Part shown: positions 15,607-31,869 of the stretch, one piece after another
Layout of the letters: the number at the start of each line of letters is the position of its first letter
How positions within the stretch are numbered: the stretch's first letter is position 1
NCBI GenBank assembly: GCA_043818175.1
Contig: JBDRGA010000046.1
Span: 1-56,214, forward strand
Direction of reading: 5' to 3'
Length of the DNA: 56,214 bases
Origin: Candidatus Woesearchaeota archaeon
GTDB lineage: Archaea; Nanobdellota; Nanobdellia; Woesearchaeales; JBDRGA01
The notes under the pieces: model-generated
Databases searched by the model: none
Told to the model about the DNA's origin: nothing
The model's input: only the letters and a program-made list of their open reading frames with translations
Position numbers and translations under genes: made by a program

Positions 15607-15981
15607 ATGATTGTCAATATAGATTTGGGTGTTGTTGAGACTCTAGTAGACCTCGCCAGTCAAGCCCATCCGAAAGAAACTGTGATGATTCTTGAGGGTT
15701 CGAACAGGAAGGGTGAGATTAAGGTTACTGGAGTTCTTTTTCAACAGTATTCAGCAAACGAGAACAGCACGCATTTCAATCTAGATTTACCAATGGGCAC
15801 TAAATCCGTTGGAACGTTTCATTCTCATCCCGGACCAAGCAACAGGCCTTCTCAGGCAGATTTGAAGCTGTTTGAGAAGTTCGGTCTAGTGCACTTCATA
15901 GCGCATTACCCGTACAGAATTGAAGATTTCGCGTGCTATGATAAGATGGGCACACGAGTCCCTTTTTCTGTCTCGAACTAA
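15607..15981 (+). CDS. JAB/MPN+ (JAMM) metalloprotease
   Basis: HPKET...GTFHSHPGPSNRPSQADL matches E-HSHP-x7-S-xx-D. Start at 15607 is 28 nt after the TATA box. Confidence 0.9.
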   Translation: MIVNIDLGVVETLVDLASQAHPKETVMILEGSNRKGEIKVTGVLFQQYSANENSTHFNLDLPMGTKSVGTFHSHPGPSNRPSQADLKLFEKFGLVHFIAHYPYRIEDFACYDKMGTRVPFSVSN

Positions 15982-18900
15982 CCTTCGTGATGATGCGTTG
16001 GCTTCTTGGGCCTGCGCCATGCTGCAAATATGATGGCCAGGACAACTATGAATGCCAGTCCTATGAAGTATGGAATCGCACTTCCACCACCTTGATCTTC
16101 CTTGGTGGATTCTGCTGCTTTACCCGCTAGGTTCTGCTCGTCAGTCGCCGCAACTTTAGCCTCATCTTGAGCAGGCAAATCCTCAGCCACTTCACTCACT
16201 TCTGGCTCGATTGCTGGTTCCGCACTTGCCTTCTCAGCTCCAATTGCGAAAGTGCTGAACCCAGGTGTGTTGAAGCGGTATGTTTCTTCTGTTATTTTCG
16301 TGGGTTTGAACATCTGCCATTCTCCAGCTGAAAGCCTGAAAAGCCTGACGTTTCCTGCAAGAATACCATTTTCTTCCAACCAGGATTCGGGAACCCTCAC
16401 TTCTATCCACGCGTTTCCGACCGTTCCCATGTTCTTGAGAGTTATTTCCAAGTACTGGTAGACATGTCCATTAGGTGCTTCCTTAACGCTACTTGGTTTG
16501 CCTGAAGCATACTGCTGCACTAATACTTCGCCCTTGCTGACAGCATTCTCTGGCTTGAATCCAACTCCGACAACGCTAATTTTCGGGTCGTCAATCTTCA
16601 TACTTATAGCCTGTCCTGCGGGTACCGCGCCCCAGAACTGTACTCTGTTTGGATTTGTGTTTCTGGGTGCGCTACTACCGCCACTGCCACTGCTACTTGT
16701 TGTACAGCTTTGAGAGCTACTTTCTGAAGTTGAGCCACCACCATAACATGTTCTTGTCCTTGTCCTGGTCTGTGAGCTTGACGAACAGGTGCTCCAGTCA
16801 CTCCAGTCACTCCATCCTCCATCGCATGCAGAAGGCGTTATGTTCTTGGTGTTATTCACTGTTACTGTGCTGTTATGATTTGCACCATCATCAAGTGACG
16901 TTATAACGTATGAATATGCCATTTCTGAAGTCATAGTAGTATCCTGATACCATGCATTTGTTGTATTGGCAAGGGCTGTATTTGTATTGCTTGTATTCAG
17001 ACTGCTTATGTTTGTGGTTCGGAAAACATAATATGTCATTGCCAAATCCGCATTTCCATCGACGTCAAGCGTTACTGCTGTCCATGTAATGTTTACGGCA
17101 CCATTCGTTTTTGTGGAACCATTGGCAGTTGTGGGCGAGCGTGGCATTAATGTATCGTCAGCGGTCGCATTATAACTGCTTGATACGATGCTCTTGTTCT
17201 CGTTTGAAGACGCATCGAGACTTGTTATAGCATACCAATACGTCGTGCTGTCTGTTGTTGTATTATCCTCAAATGTTGTGTTAGTGAGCGCAGCAATTGC
17301 TGTCAGTGCTGCTGCGCTAGTTATTGCTGTAGTTGACCGGTACACCTTGTAGCTTGCTGCATTCGCGTCAGCAGTCCAGTTCAGCTCTATGTTACCATCA
17401 CTGTCAGAATCATTTACACCTACTTGTGTTAGCGTTGGAGCTGTTGTTGGGGGTGTAGTATCTATAACTGTAAAGTAATACAACCCGCTGAAGTTAGCTG
17501 CGTTGCTTAAATTATCTTCAACCTGAATTGTCCAGTTATGTGTTGTACCACTGACGAACCCTCCAACAGTGAAGTTGGTTGCTGTGTTGTTGCCTGCTGT
17601 TAATCCTGTGGCATTGGCAACTCCATCAAGGAACAACGTGTAGTTCAATATCGTATCAATTCCATCATAACTTGTAAAGTTGAACGTTACGATGGTATCT
17701 GACGCGTTTGAGTTGTTACTTGGGGCATTTAGTGTCGATACCACTGGTACTGTCGCATCTATCTTCAATACGAGGACGCTGCTGTTGGCAGCATTACCAT
17801 TGTTGTCCGTGGCTTGAACTTCAATATCGTGACTTCCATCCTCTAGTATTGATGTCACGGCAACCGTTGGCGTTCCATTGAGTGCAGTGCCAGAGGCAAC
17901 TGATACACCATCTACATAGATAACATAACTGAGGTTCGTGTCCATGTTATCTGTGAGGGTGAAGTTGATTTCAGGCGTGACATCATTTGTCCAGGAATCA
18001 TTTGCAGGCGACGTTATATTACTGGTTGGCACAGTTGTATCTACGTGAATTACAACAGACCCGTTTGCCAGGTTTGAAGCACTGTCAGCAGCTTCTATCA
18101 CTACAGTGTACGTTCCATCCAAAAAAACTCCCAATGTAACACTCTTCACAGTATTGTTTGTTGCGTTTCCCGTGCCGCCAGCAACACCATTTACATAAAG
18201 GGTGTAGTTGATGACTGTGTCTGTTTCATCAGTTAAAATAAAGTTGATGTCTGGCGTCGTATCCGTAGTCCAAGAATCATTTGCAGGCGAGGTAATTACA
18301 CTCGTTGGTGCAGTTACGTCTACTGTCAATACTATTGCTGTGCTGTTCACGCTGTGTAGTGCACTGTCAGTGGCCTGCACGAGCACAGTATACACACCCG
18401 CGCCCAGAACGCTGAGTTCTACGACTGTTGGTGTGTTGTTCAGTGCACTACCTGTCTGATTTGCAGAGCCATCTACATACACAACATAACTTAAGTTGGT
18501 ATCCAGACTATCCGTGAGCGTAAATGTGATTGCTGGAGTTGTATTTGATGTGGATGTGTTATCTGCAGGAGATGTTATCACACTGGTTGGATTTGCAGTA
18601 TCTACGTGAATAACCAAGGCAGTACTATTGAACATGTTTCCTGCTTCGTCCTCTGCCTGCATTATTAGAGTGTACGTTCCTTCTGGTGTTGCACCCATCG
18701 TAAGCGAAGAAACTGTGTTGTTGCTTACATTACCAGTAAGGTTTGCTACACCATCAACGAATAGCGTGTAGTTTAGCATGGAATCGTACACGTCAGTTAT
18801 CGTGAAGTTAATGCTCGGCGTCGTGTTCGTAGTCCAAGAATCGTTACCAGGAAAGGTAATATTGCTAGTTGGGTAACCCGTGTCGACATTAACTGTCCAC

Positions 18901-19229
18901 GTAGCACTGGTTGAGGAATTCTCCAAGTCTGTACAATTTACATTCCAGAGTCTGGTTCCCTGGGACAAACTTGCATTAGCCGTGATTATCGTGCTCGTAT
19001 CATTGAACGTTGTAGCGTTGATACCGAAACCTACGTTATCTACCAAGAGTTCACATGAGAAGTTTCCGCTGCTATTGCTTATCGCGGTGAACGTGAAGCC
19101 AGGAGTTGCACTGGGCACCCACAGATTATCAGCTGGCGATGCTGGTGCTACACTGCTAATCCCTGCCCAAACTGTATTCGCAGCGAGAATTGAAAAAACT
19201 ATTGCCAGAATTATATTACTAGTTCTCAC
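15978..19229 (-). CDS. Large cell-surface glycoprotein: Ig-like repeats, FN3-like domains, TSP1-like motif, PGF-pre-PGF domain, C-terminal TM
   Basis: Signal peptide; about 6 repeats of ITSPANDSWT.D.TP.INFT.TD..D..LNYT.YVDG; WSDWSDWSTC...TRTRTRTC; VYQYLEI...TPGFSTFAIG; TM plus basic tail; more than 40 N-x-S/T sequons. Confidence 0.9.
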   Translation of the reverse strand: MRTSNIILAIVFSILAANTVWAGISSVAPASPADNLWVPSATPGFTFTAISNSSGNFSCELLVDNVGFGINATTFNDTSTIITANASLSQGTRLWNVNCTDLENSSTSATWTVNVDTGYPTSNITFPGNDSWTTNTTPSINFTITDVYDSMLNYTLFVDGVANLTGNVSNNTVSSLTMGATPEGTYTLIMQAEDEAGNMFNSTALVIHVDTANPTSVITSPADNTSTSNTTPAITFTLTDSLDTNLSYVVYVDGSANQTGSALNNTPTVVELSVLGAGVYTVLVQATDSALHSVNSTAIVLTVDVTAPTSVITSPANDSWTTDTTPDINFILTDETDTVINYTLYVNGVAGGTGNATNNTVKSVTLGVFLDGTYTVVIEAADSASNLANGSVVIHVDTTVPTSNITSPANDSWTNDVTPEINFTLTDNMDTNLSYVIYVDGVSVASGTALNGTPTVAVTSILEDGSHDIEVQATDNNGNAANSSVLVLKIDATVPVVSTLNAPSNNSNASDTIVTFNFTSYDGIDTILNYTLFLDGVANATGLTAGNNTATNFTVGGFVSGTTHNWTIQVEDNLSNAANFSGLYYFTVIDTTPPTTAPTLTQVGVNDSDSDGNIELNWTADANAASYKVYRSTTAITSAAALTAIAALTNTTFEDNTTTDSTTYWYAITSLDASSNENKSIVSSSYNATADDTLMPRSPTTANGSTKTNGAVNITWTAVTLDVDGNADLAMTYYVFRTTNISSLNTSNTNTALANTTNAWYQDTTMTSEMAYSYVITSLDDGANHNSTVTVNNTKNITPSACDGGWSDWSDWSTCSSSSQTRTRTRTCYGGGSTSESSSQSCTTSSSGSGGSSAPRNTNPNRVQFWGAVPAGQAISMKIDDPKISVVGVGFKPENAVSKGEVLVQQYASGKPSSVKEAPNGHVYQYLEITLKNMGTVGNAWIEVRVPESWLEENGILAGNVRLFRLSAGEWQMFKPTKITEETYRFNTPGFSTFAIGAEKASAEPAIEPEVSEVAEDLPAQDEAKVAATDEQNLAGKAAESTKEDQGGGSAIPYFIGLAFIVVLAIIFAAWRRPKKPTHHHEG

Positions 19230-19494: not shown

Positions 19495-19568
19495 GGGCTC
19501 GTAGCTCAGTCCGGTAGAGCGCTCCGTTCGCAGCGGAGAGGCCCCGGGTTCGAATCCCGGCGGGTCCA
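19495..19568 (+). tRNA. trnA: tRNA-Ala (anticodon CGC)
   Basis: Full cloverleaf, G3:U70 Ala identity pair, anticodon loop TT-CGC-AG, TTCGAAT T-loop, no intron, CCA not encoded, TATA TTTATAAA at 19463-19470. Confidence 0.97.
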
Positions 19569-19570
19569 TT

Positions 19571-19954
19571 TTAGATCATCAGTACATTCGATAAACCAGT
19601 AAAATCATTATCTCTTGTGACAAGTGTTGCGTGTTCATTAAGAGCCGTAGCGTAATGCATAGCATCAACAATACTAAATTTGTTCTTGGTTTTCCTTTGC
19701 TTGTGCTTTATTCTTGATGCGTTCACACTCAATGAAATGTTAATTGGGATTGGTTTGCATTTGCTGGTAATGAATTGCAACAGCTCCTTTACTTGAAGCT
19801 CGTTCATTCCCCCCACGGTGCATATGTCTGCGACTTCAACCAGTGCCAAAGAAGAGCAAACCAACTCGTTCATCTCGATGCATTCATGCACTTTTCCGGA
19901 CTCTCCCCGGATATAGGATATCCATACCGAACTATCAATGCAGTATTTACTCAT
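19571..19954 (-). CDS. vapC: PIN-domain toxin (VapC family)
   Basis: CIDSSVWI...LVEV...SIVDAMHYATA...LVTRDNDF. Confidence 0.9.
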   Translation of the reverse strand: MSKYCIDSSVWISYIRGESGKVHECIEMNELVCSSLALVEVADICTVGGMNELQVKELLQFITSKCKPIPINISLSVNASRIKHKQRKTKNKFSIVDAMHYATALNEHATLVTRDNDFTGLSNVLMI

Positions 19955-20144
19955 GCTTCATCCTCATCCTGTCTGATTTCTTCCATTTTGGGATGTCTTT
20001 GTAAGCTCCGAACATCGATTTTGGAATGTTGTTGCTCTTGACAAGCAGCCCCTTTATTATGTCATCGTATGTCCTTGCAGAGCCTTCCTTCATCTGCTCA
20101 AGCATTCTTTTTGTGTCATCCGAGACCTGTACTGTGGTTGTCAC
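19947..20144 (-). CDS. Antitoxin (VapB-like)
   Basis: 65 aa TTTVQVSDDTKRML...TYDDII..LL; overlaps the vapC start. Confidence 0.75.
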   Translation of the reverse strand: MTTTVQVSDDTKRMLEQMKEGSARTYDDIIKGLLVKSNNIPKSMFGAYKDIPKWKKSDRMRMKHE

Positions 20145-21970: not shown

Positions 21971-22855
21971 GTGATCCTCGTCGATAAGATTTTTGGTTTT
22001 GATCAGAACTGGCAGATGACTTCTCCTAAGGTAGACCATCATACCACAATGGTAAGCCATGCTCATTACGATCACCTTCCAACGAAGTTCAAGGACAAGA
22101 AACTCGTCTGTTCAAGAGAAACGGAGAAGATTATCCGAATGAGAAGGAACAACAAGGAGCTGAACTTCTGGAAAGACCCTAACGTCAAAATGCTTAACGC
22201 AGGCCACACCATAGGAAGCAAGATGTTTCATTTTCAGGAGCAGGACATTCTTTACACTGGAGATTTCAACACGCAGAACAAGTACTGCGGTACGGCAAAG
22301 CCAGTGCAATGCAACACTTTGATTATGGAAGGTACGTTTGGAGCACCTGAATACATCTTCCCAAAACACGAATTGGTTGTTGAGCAGTTGGTTGATTACT
22401 TGAAGAATAATCCAAAAGCAATAATTCGCGCTTATAGTTTCGGTAAATCACAGGAAATCTGCCACATCCTAGATAAACATAAGATTGACTTCAAGATTGA
22501 GAGCGCTCCTGCAAAAGCAATAAATGACGAACTAGGCTTGAAGTTCAAGCATGAAAAAGAAGACGCGACAGTTCTCCTAGGCCCAGATCATAGGATTGGT
22601 TTCAAGAGCATCGCAGTTTCCGGCTGGGCCATTGACCCAAGGTACAGATTCCAGATGGGTGTTGATGCCGCCTTCCCCTTATCTGACCATGCGGACTTTC
22701 CTTCTCTTTTACAGTTCGCGCAAAGTTGTAATCCAAAAAAGATAAGGGTATTCCACGGCGGTCATCACGTAGAATTGGCTCATTCTCTAAGAAAGATGGG
22801 CTTTGATGCGGAAGCATTTCCTGTAACGCAAAGGAGATTAACGCAGTTCTCTTAA
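21971..22855 (+). CDS. Metallo-beta-lactamase/beta-CASP-like exonuclease
   Basis: SHAHYDH, AGHTIGS, YTGDF, MEGTFG, LSDHADF and FHG motifs. Confidence 0.85.
   Translation: MILVDKIFGFDQNWQMTSPKVDHHTTMVSHAHYDHLPTKFKDKKLVCSRETEKIIRMRRNNKELNFWKDPNVKMLNAGHTIGSKMFHFQEQDILYTGDFNTQNKYCGTAKPVQCNTLIMEGTFGAPEYIFPKHELVVEQLVDYLKNNPKAIIRAYSFGKSQEICHILDKHKIDFKIESAPAKAINDELGLKFKHEKEDATVLLGPDHRIGFKSIAVSGWAIDPRYRFQMGVDAAFPLSDHADFPSLLQFAQSCNPKKIRVFHGGHHVELAHSLRKMGFDAEAFPVTQRRLTQFS
22799..22855 (+). repeat. Direct repeat copy 1 (last 19 codons of the MBL nuclease gene)
   Basis: 51/57 identical to 23789-23845; exact 29-bp core at 22823-22851. Confidence 0.9.
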
Positions 22856-23788
22856 GGTCGGATGGTGTATTTGATATTCCAATAATGTTTCAGAAGGCGT
22901 TACTTTAATTTCTTCTTCCCTTCATTCGAAAGGTAATTCTTGCTGGATATTGTGCTTCTTCCAAGTCGTTTTTCGACGCTTTCCCTGGCTTCTCCGGCTG
23001 CCTCACCTCCCTCTTTGGCCGAGTCCTTGCATTCTGGAAACCCTTGAGAATCACGTTCTCTTGTAATTTCAGTAGTTGTCTTTTCACCCAGCATCGTGAA
23101 TATCAATTCGAAGTCAGTCATGTGGTCACGAAGATTCTGGTTCTTCCTTTTCAGTCGTTTGAATTCCTTGTACTCGCCAACAGTCTTGCCAAACGTCGCC
23201 TTTGATATCTCGTTAGTTAAAATCGCAAATTCGTTCTCTGTTTTTATATCTCTGTCTTTCCACTCGTCAGTCAATTCCTGCCTGATTGCTATACCGCGCA
23301 GTCTCTTGTCAATCCAACCTTTGGGATATCCCTTAAGTTCATAGTATTCTTTAATCCTGTCTTGACCCACTTCTGGATTTTCAATTTCTTCAATCCGCTC
23401 GTATCCCACTTGCGCCAGCCATTGCTTGAATGGTTCGGCTCTCTTTGAAGGAATGGATTGTATTATTCTGAAAATCTGTTTGGTACTGCCCGCCAAAGTC
23501 CTCCGTTGCTTTCCTGTTTCTGTAGGCATGTCTACATGGGGACAATTTGTCCCTAGGTAACTTCCGAGTTCTTCATCCCGCTTACGAAGTTTCTTCAGGT
23601 AATCTGTAGGATTTGTACTGTCTGTCAAAACCGCTATGATGTCAACAATCGAAAAATACCATTCTCCATTGTACCAAGCTCTCCGTATTCTCCTGTTCTG
23701 GAACACAACCAGCTTGTTCTTTTCGTCCATGAAATTGGCAAGGCCTTGACGTTTATATGCTTTCAGGGAGGTTGTCCAGTGCACACAA
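22856..23788. mobile_element. 933-bp inserted cassette carrying only a BRO-N gene, bounded by att-like direct repeats
   Basis: Flanked by the 57-bp gene-end duplication; no recombinase inside. Confidence 0.55.
22900..23730 (-). CDS. BRO-N domain protein (phage antirepressor-like)
   Basis: IRRAWYNGEWYFSIVDII...PSKRAEPFKQWLAQVG. Start at 23730 is supported by a TATA box at 23751-23758. Confidence 0.85.
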   Translation of the reverse strand: MDEKNKLVVFQNRRIRRAWYNGEWYFSIVDIIAVLTDSTNPTDYLKKLRKRDEELGSYLGTNCPHVDMPTETGKQRRTLAGSTKQIFRIIQSIPSKRAEPFKQWLAQVGYERIEEIENPEVGQDRIKEYYELKGYPKGWIDKRLRGIAIRQELTDEWKDRDIKTENEFAILTNEISKATFGKTVGEYKEFKRLKRKNQNLRDHMTDFELIFTMLGEKTTTEITRERDSQGFPECKDSAKEGGEAAGEARESVEKRLGRSTISSKNYLSNEGKKKLK

Positions 23789-23845
23789 GGATTCGATGCG
23801 AAACCATTTCCAGTAACGCAAAGGAGATTAACGCAGTTCTCGTAA
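23789..23845 (+). repeat. Direct repeat copy 2 (displaced gene end, reads GFDAKPFPVTQRRLTQFS*)
   Basis: Same frame and stop as copy 1; exact core at 23813-23841. Confidence 0.9.
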
Positions 23846-23892
23846 TACTTCCAACCGTAAAATTATTATACTACTCTTCAGTCGTTGTTCTC

Positions 23893-24660
23893 ATGCCACT
23901 ACATTTAGGAGTCATTCTTGATTTGGCAGTCGAAGTAGAGCAAATCTACGAATGCAGGGGTTCAGACAGTTCATCCCGTCTTGCTCTTTCTCACGGCATG
24001 GGCACCAGAAACGATGGCCACTCCGGTTGGATAACGCTCGAAGAAGGTCTTGACGCAGTAGAGCAAGCATACCTCAAACAAGAATTGGCAGGGCTTGCTC
24101 TCGATGAATGGGATGCCACGTTTGATTACATTGGGGTCTCTGAACCAAAAAATGCCGAGTCATTGTGGGCGCATTTGAGGAGCAGGGACATGAGGGATAA
24201 GAAAATCAGAGAGAACAAGAAGCTTTACGCAAATCCTCCAAGAGTTTTCCAATCAATACTAAACACTGCTCTAAGCACAGTGGCGGGCGCGGCAGTTGGT
24301 TCTGCAACCGCGAGCCAAGAAGCTCACTCGAGTGGGCTATTGGGCGCTGGAATCGGAGCGCTAGTGGTTGGCCTACCCGTAGGAACTAGGGAAGTGTACC
24401 GTCATCTGAAAGCAGAGCGTGTTGCCGTTGAGTTCGATGCGAATTCCGCGGAAATGCAAAGGAAAGCTAACGATAGAACGTACAACGACTATGTAGTCAA
24501 TAGTGCTGTGGGCACAGCCAACGAATTCGCCGATGACAAAGAGCAGCACGCAGGACCGCTATATTCCCGCGAACAATACGTAGAGGAACGCGTAAGGCGA
24601 GCAAGACTGATTGCCGACATTAGCATGGCCTGGGAACTCTTAGAACCTCACAACACATAA
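23893..24660 (+). CDS. Hypothetical protein with Gly/Ala-rich hydrophobic hairpin
   Basis: Start moved to the ATG at 23893 (AT-rich box at 23861-23870); the upstream extension runs through the repeat. Confidence 0.6.
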   Translation: MPLHLGVILDLAVEVEQIYECRGSDSSSRLALSHGMGTRNDGHSGWITLEEGLDAVEQAYLKQELAGLALDEWDATFDYIGVSEPKNAESLWAHLRSRDMRDKKIRENKKLYANPPRVFQSILNTALSTVAGAAVGSATASQEAHSSGLLGAGIGALVVGLPVGTREVYRHLKAERVAVEFDANSAEMQRKANDRTYNDYVVNSAVGTANEFADDKEQHAGPLYSREQYVEERVRRARLIADISMAWELLEPHNT

Positions 24661-25028
24661 TCCACATCTCCCCCGTCTCCCAAGAAGAAAACCGTTGCCT
24701 TCGTTCTTCTCGCGTAGAACCTTAGTTCCTGCAATTGTCTCGGCGTAGCATCGCTAAGCAGTATCAAGCTTGGCTTTATCGCTTTGAGCAATGGAAGCAA
24801 TGACCCCTTAACGGGCTTTCCTACTATAACTCTGCTCACTGCTTCAGCAAGATGTGGATATTGCGCTTCAATCTGAGCAGTATCAAAAATATCAAGAGGG
24901 TCTAAGAAAAGTACTGACTCGTACTGTGCTTTTAGCGCCAGTCTTATCAGAAATTCTCCTCCAGTGAACCTGTCTCCTGTTATGCCGATGAGCGTGCCTC
25001 TTAGTTTTGGTTCGATTAATGCGTCCAT
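24648..25028 (-). CDS. Short degenerate RecA/RadB-like protein
   Basis: GTLIGITGDRFTGGE (degenerate Walker A position) and VLFLDPLDIFD. Start at 25028 is about 28 nt from TTTAAA. Confidence 0.4.
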   Translation of the reverse strand: MDALIEPKLRGTLIGITGDRFTGGEFLIRLALKAQYESVLFLDPLDIFDTAQIEAQYPHLAEAVSRVIVGKPVKGSLLPLLKAIKPSLILLSDATPRQLQELRFYARRTKATVFFLGDGGDVDYVL

Positions 25029-25141
25029 AATTGCATTGAGATTCAGTTCTTTAAATGCGCTGTCTCGGGTTGTCCAGTGGTTGTTCTCTGCATCACAATG
25101 GTTGCACAAGTATTAAAAGCATTTGACATTACCTAGAGAAT

Positions 25142-31851: not shown

Positions 31852-31869
31852 AATCACACACTGGACAAG
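31852..31869 (+). repeat. 18-bp exact direct repeat (second copy at 32055-32072)
   Basis: AATCACACACTGGACAAG appears in the intergenic DNA and again 203 bp downstream inside the exonuclease CDS. Confidence 0.85.

What the first reader, a model, noticed from the sequence alone, without database searches (positions are those of the whole stretch)
22799..23845. Minimal 933-bp BRO-N cassette flanked by a duplicated, still-coding gene end
Seen: the last 19 codons of the MBL nuclease gene (22799-22855) recur at 23789-23845 with 51/57 identity and a 29-bp exact core. Four of the six differences are synonymous third-position changes and the stop is retained (GFDAEAFPVTQRRLTQFS* vs GFDAKPFPVTQRRLTQFS*). 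The core holds TAACGCA twice, 8 bp apart. Only a BRO-N gene with its own promoter lies between the copies. Established: elements integrating into gene 3' ends carry a replacement end and leave attL/attR repeats. Inference: either the remnant of an integrative element that lost its integrase, or a tiny trans-mobilised cassette. Integration into a protein-coding gene rather than a tRNA would mark an unrecorded att site.
Basis: partly seen in the sequence, partly recalled or inferred. Interest (0 to 1): 0.7.

Follow-up and report, generated by a model that had tools for sequence, protein, structure and literature searches.

The report
Defence-gene cassette with duplicated target
A single candidate anti-virus gene, carrying its own promoter, sits just after a DNA-repair nuclease gene in a tiny archaeon's chromosome and is flanked by two copies of that gene's last 57 bases; relatives of this gene show the same signature at many unrelated sites, which fits recombinase-free "insertion with long target duplication" better than a new integrase attachment site.

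Summary
The 57 nt at 22799-22855 recur at 23789-23845 with 51/57 identity, a 29-nt exact core and the stop codon kept.

- **The insert.** The 933 bp between the copies hold one gene on the minus strand (22900-23730, 276 aa). It has a BRO-N domain plus a helical C-terminal half with weak similarity to DinD. It matches PADLOC candidate defence system PDC-S13 over its full length. It has its own TATA box and a conserved upstream motif.
- **The context.** The window is an archaeal chromosome, probably DPANN. No recombinase was found within 9-39 kb.
- **The nearest relative.** The closest syntenic contig (L001) has one gene end and no BRO gene.
- **The family pattern.** 22 of 138 loci carrying a relative of this gene have imperfect flanking direct repeats of 22-143 nt. 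Only 2 of 179 control windows do (p = 4e-7). The repeat differs at every locus, and targets include intergenic DNA, a terminator, gene starts and gene ends. No junction motif is shared.

This argues against a dedicated att site. It matches "insertion with long target duplication", described for restriction-modification genes in bacteria, whose mechanism is unknown. No close-relative empty site or excised circle could be found. I file it as a new member of a known kind, of moderate interest.

The parts
21971..22855 (+). Host target gene: a small MBL/beta-CASP nuclease resembling the ligase-associated exonuclease. It is intact and its C-terminus aligns with homologues.
   Evidence: Pfam RMMBL; partial TIGR04122 match at 1e-32; homologues and C-terminal alignment.
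22799..22855 (+). Repeat copy A: the functional last 18 codons plus stop of the MBL gene.
22856..22899 (-). The 44-nt 3' tail of the cassette, between the BRO stop codon and copy A.
   Evidence: Sequence. Related positive loci also have short gaps between the stop codon and the repeat.
22900..23730 (-). Cargo gene of 276 aa: an N-terminal BRO-N domain plus a conserved helical C-terminal half with weak similarity to DinD. It belongs to PADLOC candidate defence system PDC-S13 and to phrog_15286.
   Evidence: Pfam Bro-N, 40.3 bits against a 25.6 cutoff; PDLC04920 at 5e-114 over residues 1-273; phrog_15286 at 1e-98; more than 8000 homologues, 70-79% identical in DPANN archaea.
23731..23788 (-). 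Cassette promoter of 58 nt. The TATA box (ATATAAA) is the reverse complement of 23752-23758, 22-28 nt upstream of the ATG. The operator-like motif CACTGGACAACCT lies at 23769-23781, only 7 nt inside the repeat boundary.
   Evidence: Sequence; exact motif match; the same motif-plus-TATA geometry in 20 of 165 related loci against 0.49 expected.
23789..23845 (+). Repeat copy B: an orphan copy of the MBL gene end, not joined to any MBL body.
23846..23892 (+). Presumed original spacer downstream of MBL. It holds an A/T-rich TATA-like box (23859-23870) 23 nt before the next ATG.
   Evidence: Sequence; the promoter role is inferred.
23893..24660 (+). ORFan of 255 aa lying outside the repeats. It is absent from the syntenic relative L001 and its 3' end overlaps the convergent gene.
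   Evidence: No homologue among 5.8 billion or 1.84 billion proteins; coding-like codon usage and GC 0.50; L001 comparison.
24648..25028 (-). Convergent host gene of 126 aa, the orthologue of the L001 128-aa gene. In L001 it directly abuts the MBL stop codon. It carries the same upstream motif at 25067-25079.

Best explanation
A 933-bp single-gene cassette inserted immediately after the stop codon of a chromosomal MBL nuclease gene in an archaeon, probably a DPANN lineage. The cassette consists of a promoter with an operator-like motif, a BRO-N/PDC-S13 candidate defence gene and a 44-nt tail. The insertion duplicated the last 57 bp of the target.

- Copy A stayed attached to the gene and keeps it intact.
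- Copy B became an orphan on the other side of the cassette.
- The two copies have since diverged at 6 positions.

The event belongs to the class 'insertion with long target duplication'. In that class the duplication is made from the recipient's own DNA at whatever site is hit, and no element-encoded integrase or fixed att core is involved.

Shown here: the anatomy, the recurrence of the signature in the gene family, the heterogeneity of targets, and the absence of a nearby recombinase.

Inferred: that the duplication arose at the moment of insertion, for example by fill-in of widely staggered breaks or by joining of the incoming DNA to two offset points of sister or replicating duplexes. The repeats could later allow loss, amplification or circle formation by homologous recombination; this is also inferred.
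For: - **Repeat.** It is real and unique in the window.
- **Cargo.** Only one gene lies between the copies, with its own TATA box and a conserved motif 7 nt from the repeat boundary.
- **Syntenic relative.** L001 shares the MBL gene (68% aa), the 126/128-aa gene (50%) and OGG (60%). It has one gene end and no BRO gene.
- **Family-wide test.** 22 of 138 loci have flanking direct repeats scoring at least 36 bits, against 2 of 179 equally spaced control windows in the same loci (Fisher p = 4e-7, odds ratio 17).
- **Further cases.** The closest relative examined has a 39/40 repeat starting 2 nt before a neighbour's stop codon (L178). Viral contigs add L263 (76 nt, 97%) and L188 (90 nt, 88%).
- **Unit size.** Copy-to-copy spacing is 962-1413 bp in 21 of the 22 positive loci (1947 bp in L045), which is one gene.
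- **Target heterogeneity.** Repeat sequences all differ and targets vary. No shared junction motif was seen on inspection, and the window shows no inverted repeat pairing the cassette ends.
- **No recombinase.** No integrase or transposase Pfam hit in 9-39 kb.
- **Precedent.** The same signature is published for R-M genes: repeats over 30 bp, imperfect, including 46-bp repeats overlapping gene 3' ends (PMC2853133).
Against: - No empty site in a close relative. L001 is distant, and it also lacks the adjacent ORFan, so the pre-insertion state is not reconstructed exactly.
- The 29-nt core was not found in metagenome contigs.
- Exact-pattern scans for two other positive loci found no empty alleles.
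- Identical BRO proteins sit in one fixed context each, so no recent movement was seen.
- Some positive loci may be insertions between pre-existing paralogous sequences (L019, L054).
- About 84% of loci show no repeat.
- The biochemical mechanism is unknown, and all related loci come from metagenome assemblies.
Confidence: 0.6

Rival explanations
1. A small circular element, or the remnant of a larger one, carrying a mimic of the MBL gene end integrated by site-specific recombination within the 29-nt core. An alternative route is single-crossover homologous recombination. The recombinase would be supplied in trans or have been lost. The repeats would then be attL and attR.
For: - An exact 29-nt core is flanked by diverged arms.
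- Four of the six differences are synonymous and the stop is kept in the orphan copy. This is what two orthologous gene ends from different lineages would look like.
- Copy B keeps the family-typical Pro while copy A keeps the Glu.
- The repeat ends exactly at the stop codon.
- Once a cassette is flanked by repeats, circle formation and re-integration by homologous recombination at the same site in relatives is plausible.
Against: - No recombinase in the cassette or within 9-39 kb.
- The core and the TAACGCA pair are absent from all 174 loci held at that point, most of which carry a relative of the gene.
- Repeats at the other positive loci are all different and often non-coding.
- The exact run and the excess of synonymous changes are not significant (P = 0.07; P of about 0.1, my estimate).
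- A 933-bp circle has no replication or transfer function.
Confidence: 0.22
2. The duplication came first or is unrelated to the insertion. A local duplication or rearrangement at the crowded convergent gene ends produced a second MBL end, and the BRO gene later landed between the copies or replaced what lay there by ordinary recombination. This is 'chance insertion between repeated sequences'.
For: - This site is variable. The ORFan 23893-24660 is also absent from L001.
- In some related loci the flanking similarity reflects paralogous neighbours (L019, L054).
- Degenerate BRO fragments next to intact genes show repeated turnover at one site.
Against: - It needs two independent events at exactly the same junction.
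- Repeats abut the single-gene unit in 22 of 138 loci against 2 of 179 controls in the same regions, so generic local repetitiveness does not explain the association.
Confidence: 0.1
3. Assembly artefact: a chimeric join of strain haplotypes, or of a chromosome and a co-occurring element, at the shared 29-mer.
For: The window looks like a metagenome-assembled contig, and reads were not available.
Against: - Copy B is an orphan gene end joined to the BRO promoter, which no haplotype switch can create.
- The repeats are imperfect, whereas k-mer artefacts are exact.
- A 29-nt identity is shorter than the usual final k-mers.
- The same signature occurs in more than 20 independent assemblies made with different assemblers.
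Confidence: 0.03

Closest known systems
Insertion with long target duplication of restriction-modification gene units (Nobusato et al. 2000, as cited in Furuta, Abe and Kobayashi, NAR 2010, PMC2853133)
   Same: - A small gene unit without transposase or integrase.
- Flanked by direct repeats longer than 30 bp that are copies of the recipient's own sequence.
- Repeats are variable in length, slightly diverged and unique in the genome.
- Some repeats overlap the 3' end of a neighbouring gene.
- The cargo is a defence-type gene.
- Flanking repeats are significantly more frequent than for average genes.
   Different: - The cargo is not an R-M system but a single BRO-N/PDC-S13 gene with no recognisable nuclease domain. 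The published idea that the restriction enzyme's own double-strand breaks drive the event would therefore not apply.
- Many hosts here are archaea (labelled Woese-, Nano- and Aenigmatarchaeota), whereas no archaeal case passed their screen.
- The empty-site criterion is met here only by a distant relative.
Integrative elements that target gene 3' ends and carry a replacement end (tRNA/tmRNA-type attL/attR; CIME-like remnants)
   Same: Direct repeats that include a gene's 3' end, an intact target gene and an orphan second copy.
   Different: No integrase. No conserved core across family members. Targets are not restricted to gene ends. The unit is only 0.9-1.4 kb.
PDC-S13, a PADLOC candidate single-gene defence system, and E. 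coli DinD
   Same: Full-length HMM match to PDC-S13. A published survey groups S13 with candidates that are mainly bacterial and were probably acquired by archaea through horizontal transfer (PMC12988326). The region around the KNQ..DHM segment resembles DinD.
   Different: Defence activity is unvalidated. The match to E. coli DinD is only 29% over 80 aa and lies far below the NCBIfam cutoff. E. coli dinD has no flanking repeats.

Membership tests
Insertion with long target duplication (criteria of PMC2853133) | Insert flanked by direct repeats longer than 30 bp | tested here: met
   57 nt, 51/57 identical.
Insertion with long target duplication (criteria of PMC2853133) | Short insert (under 20 kb) with no mobility gene in or next to it | tested here: met
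   933 bp holding one BRO-N gene. No integrase or transposase Pfam hit in 9-39 kb.
Insertion with long target duplication (criteria of PMC2853133) | A related genome has an empty site with a single copy of the repeated sequence, aligned on both flanks | tested here: inconclusive
   L001 has one MBL end and no cassette. It is only 68% identical in MBL and also lacks the ORFan on the far side. No closer relative was found.
Insertion with long target duplication (criteria of PMC2853133) | Repeat sequence is not a multicopy element | tested here: met
   Only two copies in the 56-kb window, none in the other fetched loci or in metagenome contigs. The rest of the genome was not available.
Insertion with long target duplication (criteria of PMC2853133) | Cargo is a restriction-modification unit | tested here: not met
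   The cargo is BRO-N/PDC-S13. The class may not truly depend on cargo, because it was only ever screened for R-M genes.
Site-specific integrative element (attL/attR) | Tyrosine or serine recombinase encoded in or beside the element | tested here: not met
   The rest of the genome is unknown.
Site-specific integrative element (attL/attR) | The same att core is used by related elements | tested here: not met
   The core motif is absent from the 174 loci held at that point. Repeats differ at every positive locus.
Site-specific integrative element (attL/attR) | Excised circle and empty-site junctions exist | not testable with these tools
   No reads were available.
IS/transposon or MITE-like cassette | Terminal inverted repeats and a short fixed-length target duplication | tested here: not met
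   No inverted repeat pairs the window's cassette ends. Duplications in related loci are 22-143 nt and variable.
PADLOC PDC-S13 | Full-length match to the family HMM | tested here: met
   PDLC04920, E = 5.4e-114, residues 1-273 of 276.
PADLOC PDC-S13 | Protects against viruses | not testable with these tools
   The literature states that most PDCs lack validation (PMC12988326).
DinD (NCBIfam NF008573 equivalog) | Score above the curated cutoff | tested here: not met
   18.7 bits against a cutoff of 242; 29% identity over 80 aa to E. coli DinD.

The most novel reading that the evidence does not exclude
The BRO-N/PDC-S13 gene is an autonomous one-gene mobile element. Its own product, with a DNA-binding BRO-N domain and a highly conserved helical domain carrying invariant R/E/D/H residues, would direct or provoke its insertion through widely staggered breaks. 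That would explain why long, variable target duplications recur around this gene in both archaea and bacteria. The CACTGGACAA operator it carries would couple its expression to a host stress or repair regulon.
Probability: 0.08. Interest if true: 0.85.

Novelty: new member of a known kind. Interest (0 to 1): 0.5.

Why it matters
How single defence genes move between genomes without their own recombinases is poorly understood. Here one candidate defence family (PDC-S13) shows, at about one locus in six, the same recombinase-free signature of a long, variable and imperfect target duplication that was described for R-M systems. It does so in archaea as well as bacteria. If this holds, the mechanism cannot depend on a restriction enzyme's own cleavage, and it may be a general route by which compact defence genes seed new sites. 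That is relevant to small-genome DPANN archaea, which are reported to rely on single-gene systems (PMC12988326). It also gives a concrete gene family in which occupied and empty alleles can be sought and the mechanism tested.

Tried and rejected
- **Exact-protein look-ups** of the window's MBL and BRO proteins found nothing on record.
- **The 29-nt core in metagenome contigs** gave no match, so there is no strain-level empty site.
- **Identical BRO proteins in different contexts** were not seen. P0204, P0122 and P0129 each occupy a single context, so there is no evidence of very recent movement.
- **TAACGCA-N8-TAACGCA as a recombinase site** was rejected. It is absent from all related loci, and single TAACGCA is only mildly enriched in the window.
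- **Shared cassette ends or inverted repeats** were not found. Nucleotide similarity between loci stops at the ORF limits.
- **Structure.** The AlphaFold model had mean pLDDT 66, and Foldseek against the PDB gave nothing significant (best hit DdrC, E = 0.04, TM 0.22). A profile search against PDB sequences also found nothing.
- **E. coli dinD as a well-sampled test case** is too distant and has no flanking repeats.
- **Phage and plasmid collections.** The gene is rare there: 3 of 50,697 phage records and 13 of 72,556 plasmid records. The one plasmid locus checked had no repeats.
- **Exact-pattern scans of viral contigs** for empty sites of L263 and L188 returned only the occupied contigs.
- **Homologues of the neighbouring ORF 23893-24660**, which might have revealed an MBL-ORF adjacency without the cassette, do not exist in the databases searched.

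Full report
**1. The observation**

The window holds a 57-nt direct repeat, 22799-22855 and 23789-23845, with 51/57 identity. Its 29-nt exact core occurs only at these two places even with three mismatches allowed, against none expected in shuffles. Similarity ends abruptly on both sides, on the right exactly at the TAA stop codon.

Copy A forms the last 18 codons plus stop of an intact MBL/beta-CASP nuclease gene (21971-22855). That gene has a Pfam RMMBL match and a partial match to the ligase-associated exonuclease family TIGR04122. Copy B translates to the same peptide except E to K and A to P, and it is not joined to any MBL body.

A difference-free run of 29 nt given six differences in 57 has P = 0.07. 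Four of six differences at third positions has P of about 0.1 (my binomial estimate). The twin TAACGCA simply reflects the V-T-Q and L-T-Q codons.

**2. What lies between the copies**

The 933 bp at 22856-23788 contain one gene on the minus strand. Alignment with relatives places its start at the ATG at 23730, giving 276 aa.

- It has a BRO-N domain above Pfam's threshold.
- It matches phrog_15286 over its full length.
- It matches PADLOC's candidate single-gene defence system PDC-S13 at 5e-114 over residues 1-273.
- Its link to E. coli DinD is only remote.
- A structure model was of middling confidence, and no solved fold matched significantly.

The 58 nt upstream hold a TATA box 22-28 nt before the ATG and, 7 nt inside the repeat boundary, the motif CACTGGACAACCT. 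So the unit is a promoter, an ORF and a 44-nt tail.

**3. The surroundings**

The window is an archaeal chromosome, probably DPANN. It encodes topoisomerase VI, NucS, NurA, OGG and Nth, and the nearest homologues that carry names come from Woese-, Pace- and Nanoarchaeota. No integrase, resolvase or transposase domain appears between 9 and 39 kb. GC content and codon usage of the cassette match the host.

The MBL protein's closest relative in 5.8 billion proteins is only 68% identical. That contig, L001, is syntenic: MBL, then a convergent 128-aa gene (50% identical to the window's gene), then OGG (60%) and Nth. In L001 the MBL stop codon overlaps the convergent gene's stop. There is one gene end, no BRO gene, and no counterpart of the window's ORF 23893-24660.

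That ORF has coding-like codon usage but no homologue anywhere. L001 is therefore an unoccupied site, but a distant one. The site has changed in at least two ways between the two genomes.

**4. The gene family**

The BRO-N/PDC-S13 protein has more than 8000 relatives. Those labelled DPANN are 70-79% identical, and those in Bacteroidales, Treponema, Planctomycetes and others are 50-60% identical. This is far more conserved than the neighbouring host genes. A published survey likewise lists S13 among candidates probably acquired by archaea through horizontal transfer (PMC12988326).

I fetched 160 loci from genome and metagenome collections. For each I compared the 600 nt upstream of the gene with the 600 nt downstream on the same strand.

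- 22 of 138 testable loci, the window included, have a direct repeat scoring at least 36 bits.
- Only 2 of 179 control windows of the same geometry, placed about 2 kb away in the same loci, reach that score (Fisher p = 4e-7).
- Further cases came from the closest relative examined (L178: 39/40, starting 2 nt before the stop codon of the upstream E2 gene) and from viral contigs (L263: 76 nt at 97%; L188: 90 nt at 88%).
- Repeats are 22-143 nt long and 84-100% identical. Copy-to-copy spacing is 962-1413 bp in 21 of the 22 positive loci (1947 bp in L045), which is one gene.

Every repeat is a different sequence. Targets include intergenic DNA, a terminator hairpin, gene 5' ends and gene 3' ends. 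The junctions show no common motif on inspection, and no inverted repeat pairs the window's cassette ends. Nucleotide similarity between loci ends at the ORF limits. A few positives (L019, L054) may instead reflect paralogous neighbours.

**5. Interpretation**

A dedicated att site used by an integrase would predict the same core at related elements and a recombinase nearby. Neither is seen. The pattern is the one described by Kobayashi's group as "insertion with long target duplication". In that class, R-M units without mobility genes are flanked by long, variable, slightly diverged copies of the recipient's own sequence. Their examples include 46-bp repeats overlapping gene 3' ends, and flanking repeats were significantly more frequent than for average genes (PMC2853133). 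The mechanism is unknown. They suggested double-strand breakage and a cycle of insertion, amplification and release through the repeats. No archaeal case passed their screen.

I therefore read the window's feature as a new member of this class: a non-R-M, single-gene defence candidate, inserted at the very end of a coding gene in an archaeon. The duplication preserves the target gene.

Secondary spread between relatives by recombination through the repeats is compatible with either model. An assembly artefact is very unlikely, because an orphan gene end fused to the BRO promoter cannot arise from haplotype switching, and the imperfect repeats recur in many independent assemblies.

**6. What could not be shown**

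No close-relative empty site, circle junction or recent movement was found. All related loci are metagenome assemblies. The function of PDC-S13 is untested. E. coli dinD was too distant to serve as a test case.

**7. Seen in passing**

Archaeal cassettes of this family share a promoter layout: a CACTGGACAA-type motif, often as tandem CTGGACAA units, about 50-60 nt before the ATG, followed by a TATA box. It occurs in 20 of 165 loci against 0.49 expected. The same layout precedes two host genes in the window (25067-25079 and 31859-31869) and the L001 orthologue of one of them. This suggests the cassette plugs into, or defines, a small regulon.

Five loci carry a degenerate BRO-N fragment directly upstream of the intact gene, and L124 has a second full copy in tandem. 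This hints at repeated insertion or replacement at one site.

Noticed in passing
window 23769-23781 (-), 25067-25079 (-), 31859-31869 (+); L001 1032-1044 (-); upstream regions of L010, L012, L015, L018, L036, L086, L103, L106, L108, L150, L161, L175, L178 and others: An operator-like motif CACTGGACAA(C), often as tandem CTGGACAA units, lies about 50-60 nt before the ATG and just upstream of a TATA box. It occurs in 20 of 165 BRO/PDC-S13 loci with at most one mismatch, against 0.49 expected. The same geometry precedes two host genes in the window: a 126-aa gene, whose orthologue in L001 also has it, and an RNase_H_2-superfamily gene. This may mark a regulon, bound either by the BRO-N protein or by a host factor.
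   Followed up: partly
window 23893-24660 (+): A 255-aa ORFan with coding-like codon usage, GC 0.50 against about 0.44 locally, and no homologue in 5.8 billion or 1.84 billion proteins. It is absent from the syntenic contig L001. The database's gene call for it (293 aa, starting at 23779) runs through repeat copy B in another frame.
   Followed up: partly
L034 4001-4177, L050 4001-4299, L081 4001-4186, L120 2348-2647, L140 1765-2016; L124 156-950: Degenerate N-terminal BRO-N fragments, and in L124 a second full copy, lie directly upstream of an intact BRO/PDC-S13 gene on the same strand. This suggests repeated insertion or replacement at the same site.
   Followed up: no
window 24648-25109 (-): The mechanical 153-aa ORF is probably 126 aa, starting at the ATG at 25028 (MDALIEPK...). 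This follows from its alignment with the L001 orthologue and the position of the motif and TATA box. It has no Pfam match.
   Followed up: partly
window 19495-20144: tRNA-Ala(CGC) is immediately followed by a PIN-domain gene (19571-19954, minus strand) overlapping a 65-aa upstream ORF (19947-20144, minus strand). This is a likely VapBC-type toxin-antitoxin pair next to a tRNA gene.
   Followed up: no
window 15978-19229 (-): A 1083-aa Asn/Thr/Ser-rich protein with many repeats of roughly 85 aa (the 'TSNITSPANDSWT...' pattern), an N-terminal signal-like segment and a C-terminal membrane anchor. It is probably a surface or S-layer-type protein.
   Followed up: no
L207-L262 (IMG/VR contigs, mostly sample 3300045988): A large population of closely related viral contigs carries one PDC-S13 relative (45% identical to the window's protein) with no flanking repeats. 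The gene can therefore also travel as ordinary viral or proviral cargo.
   Followed up: no
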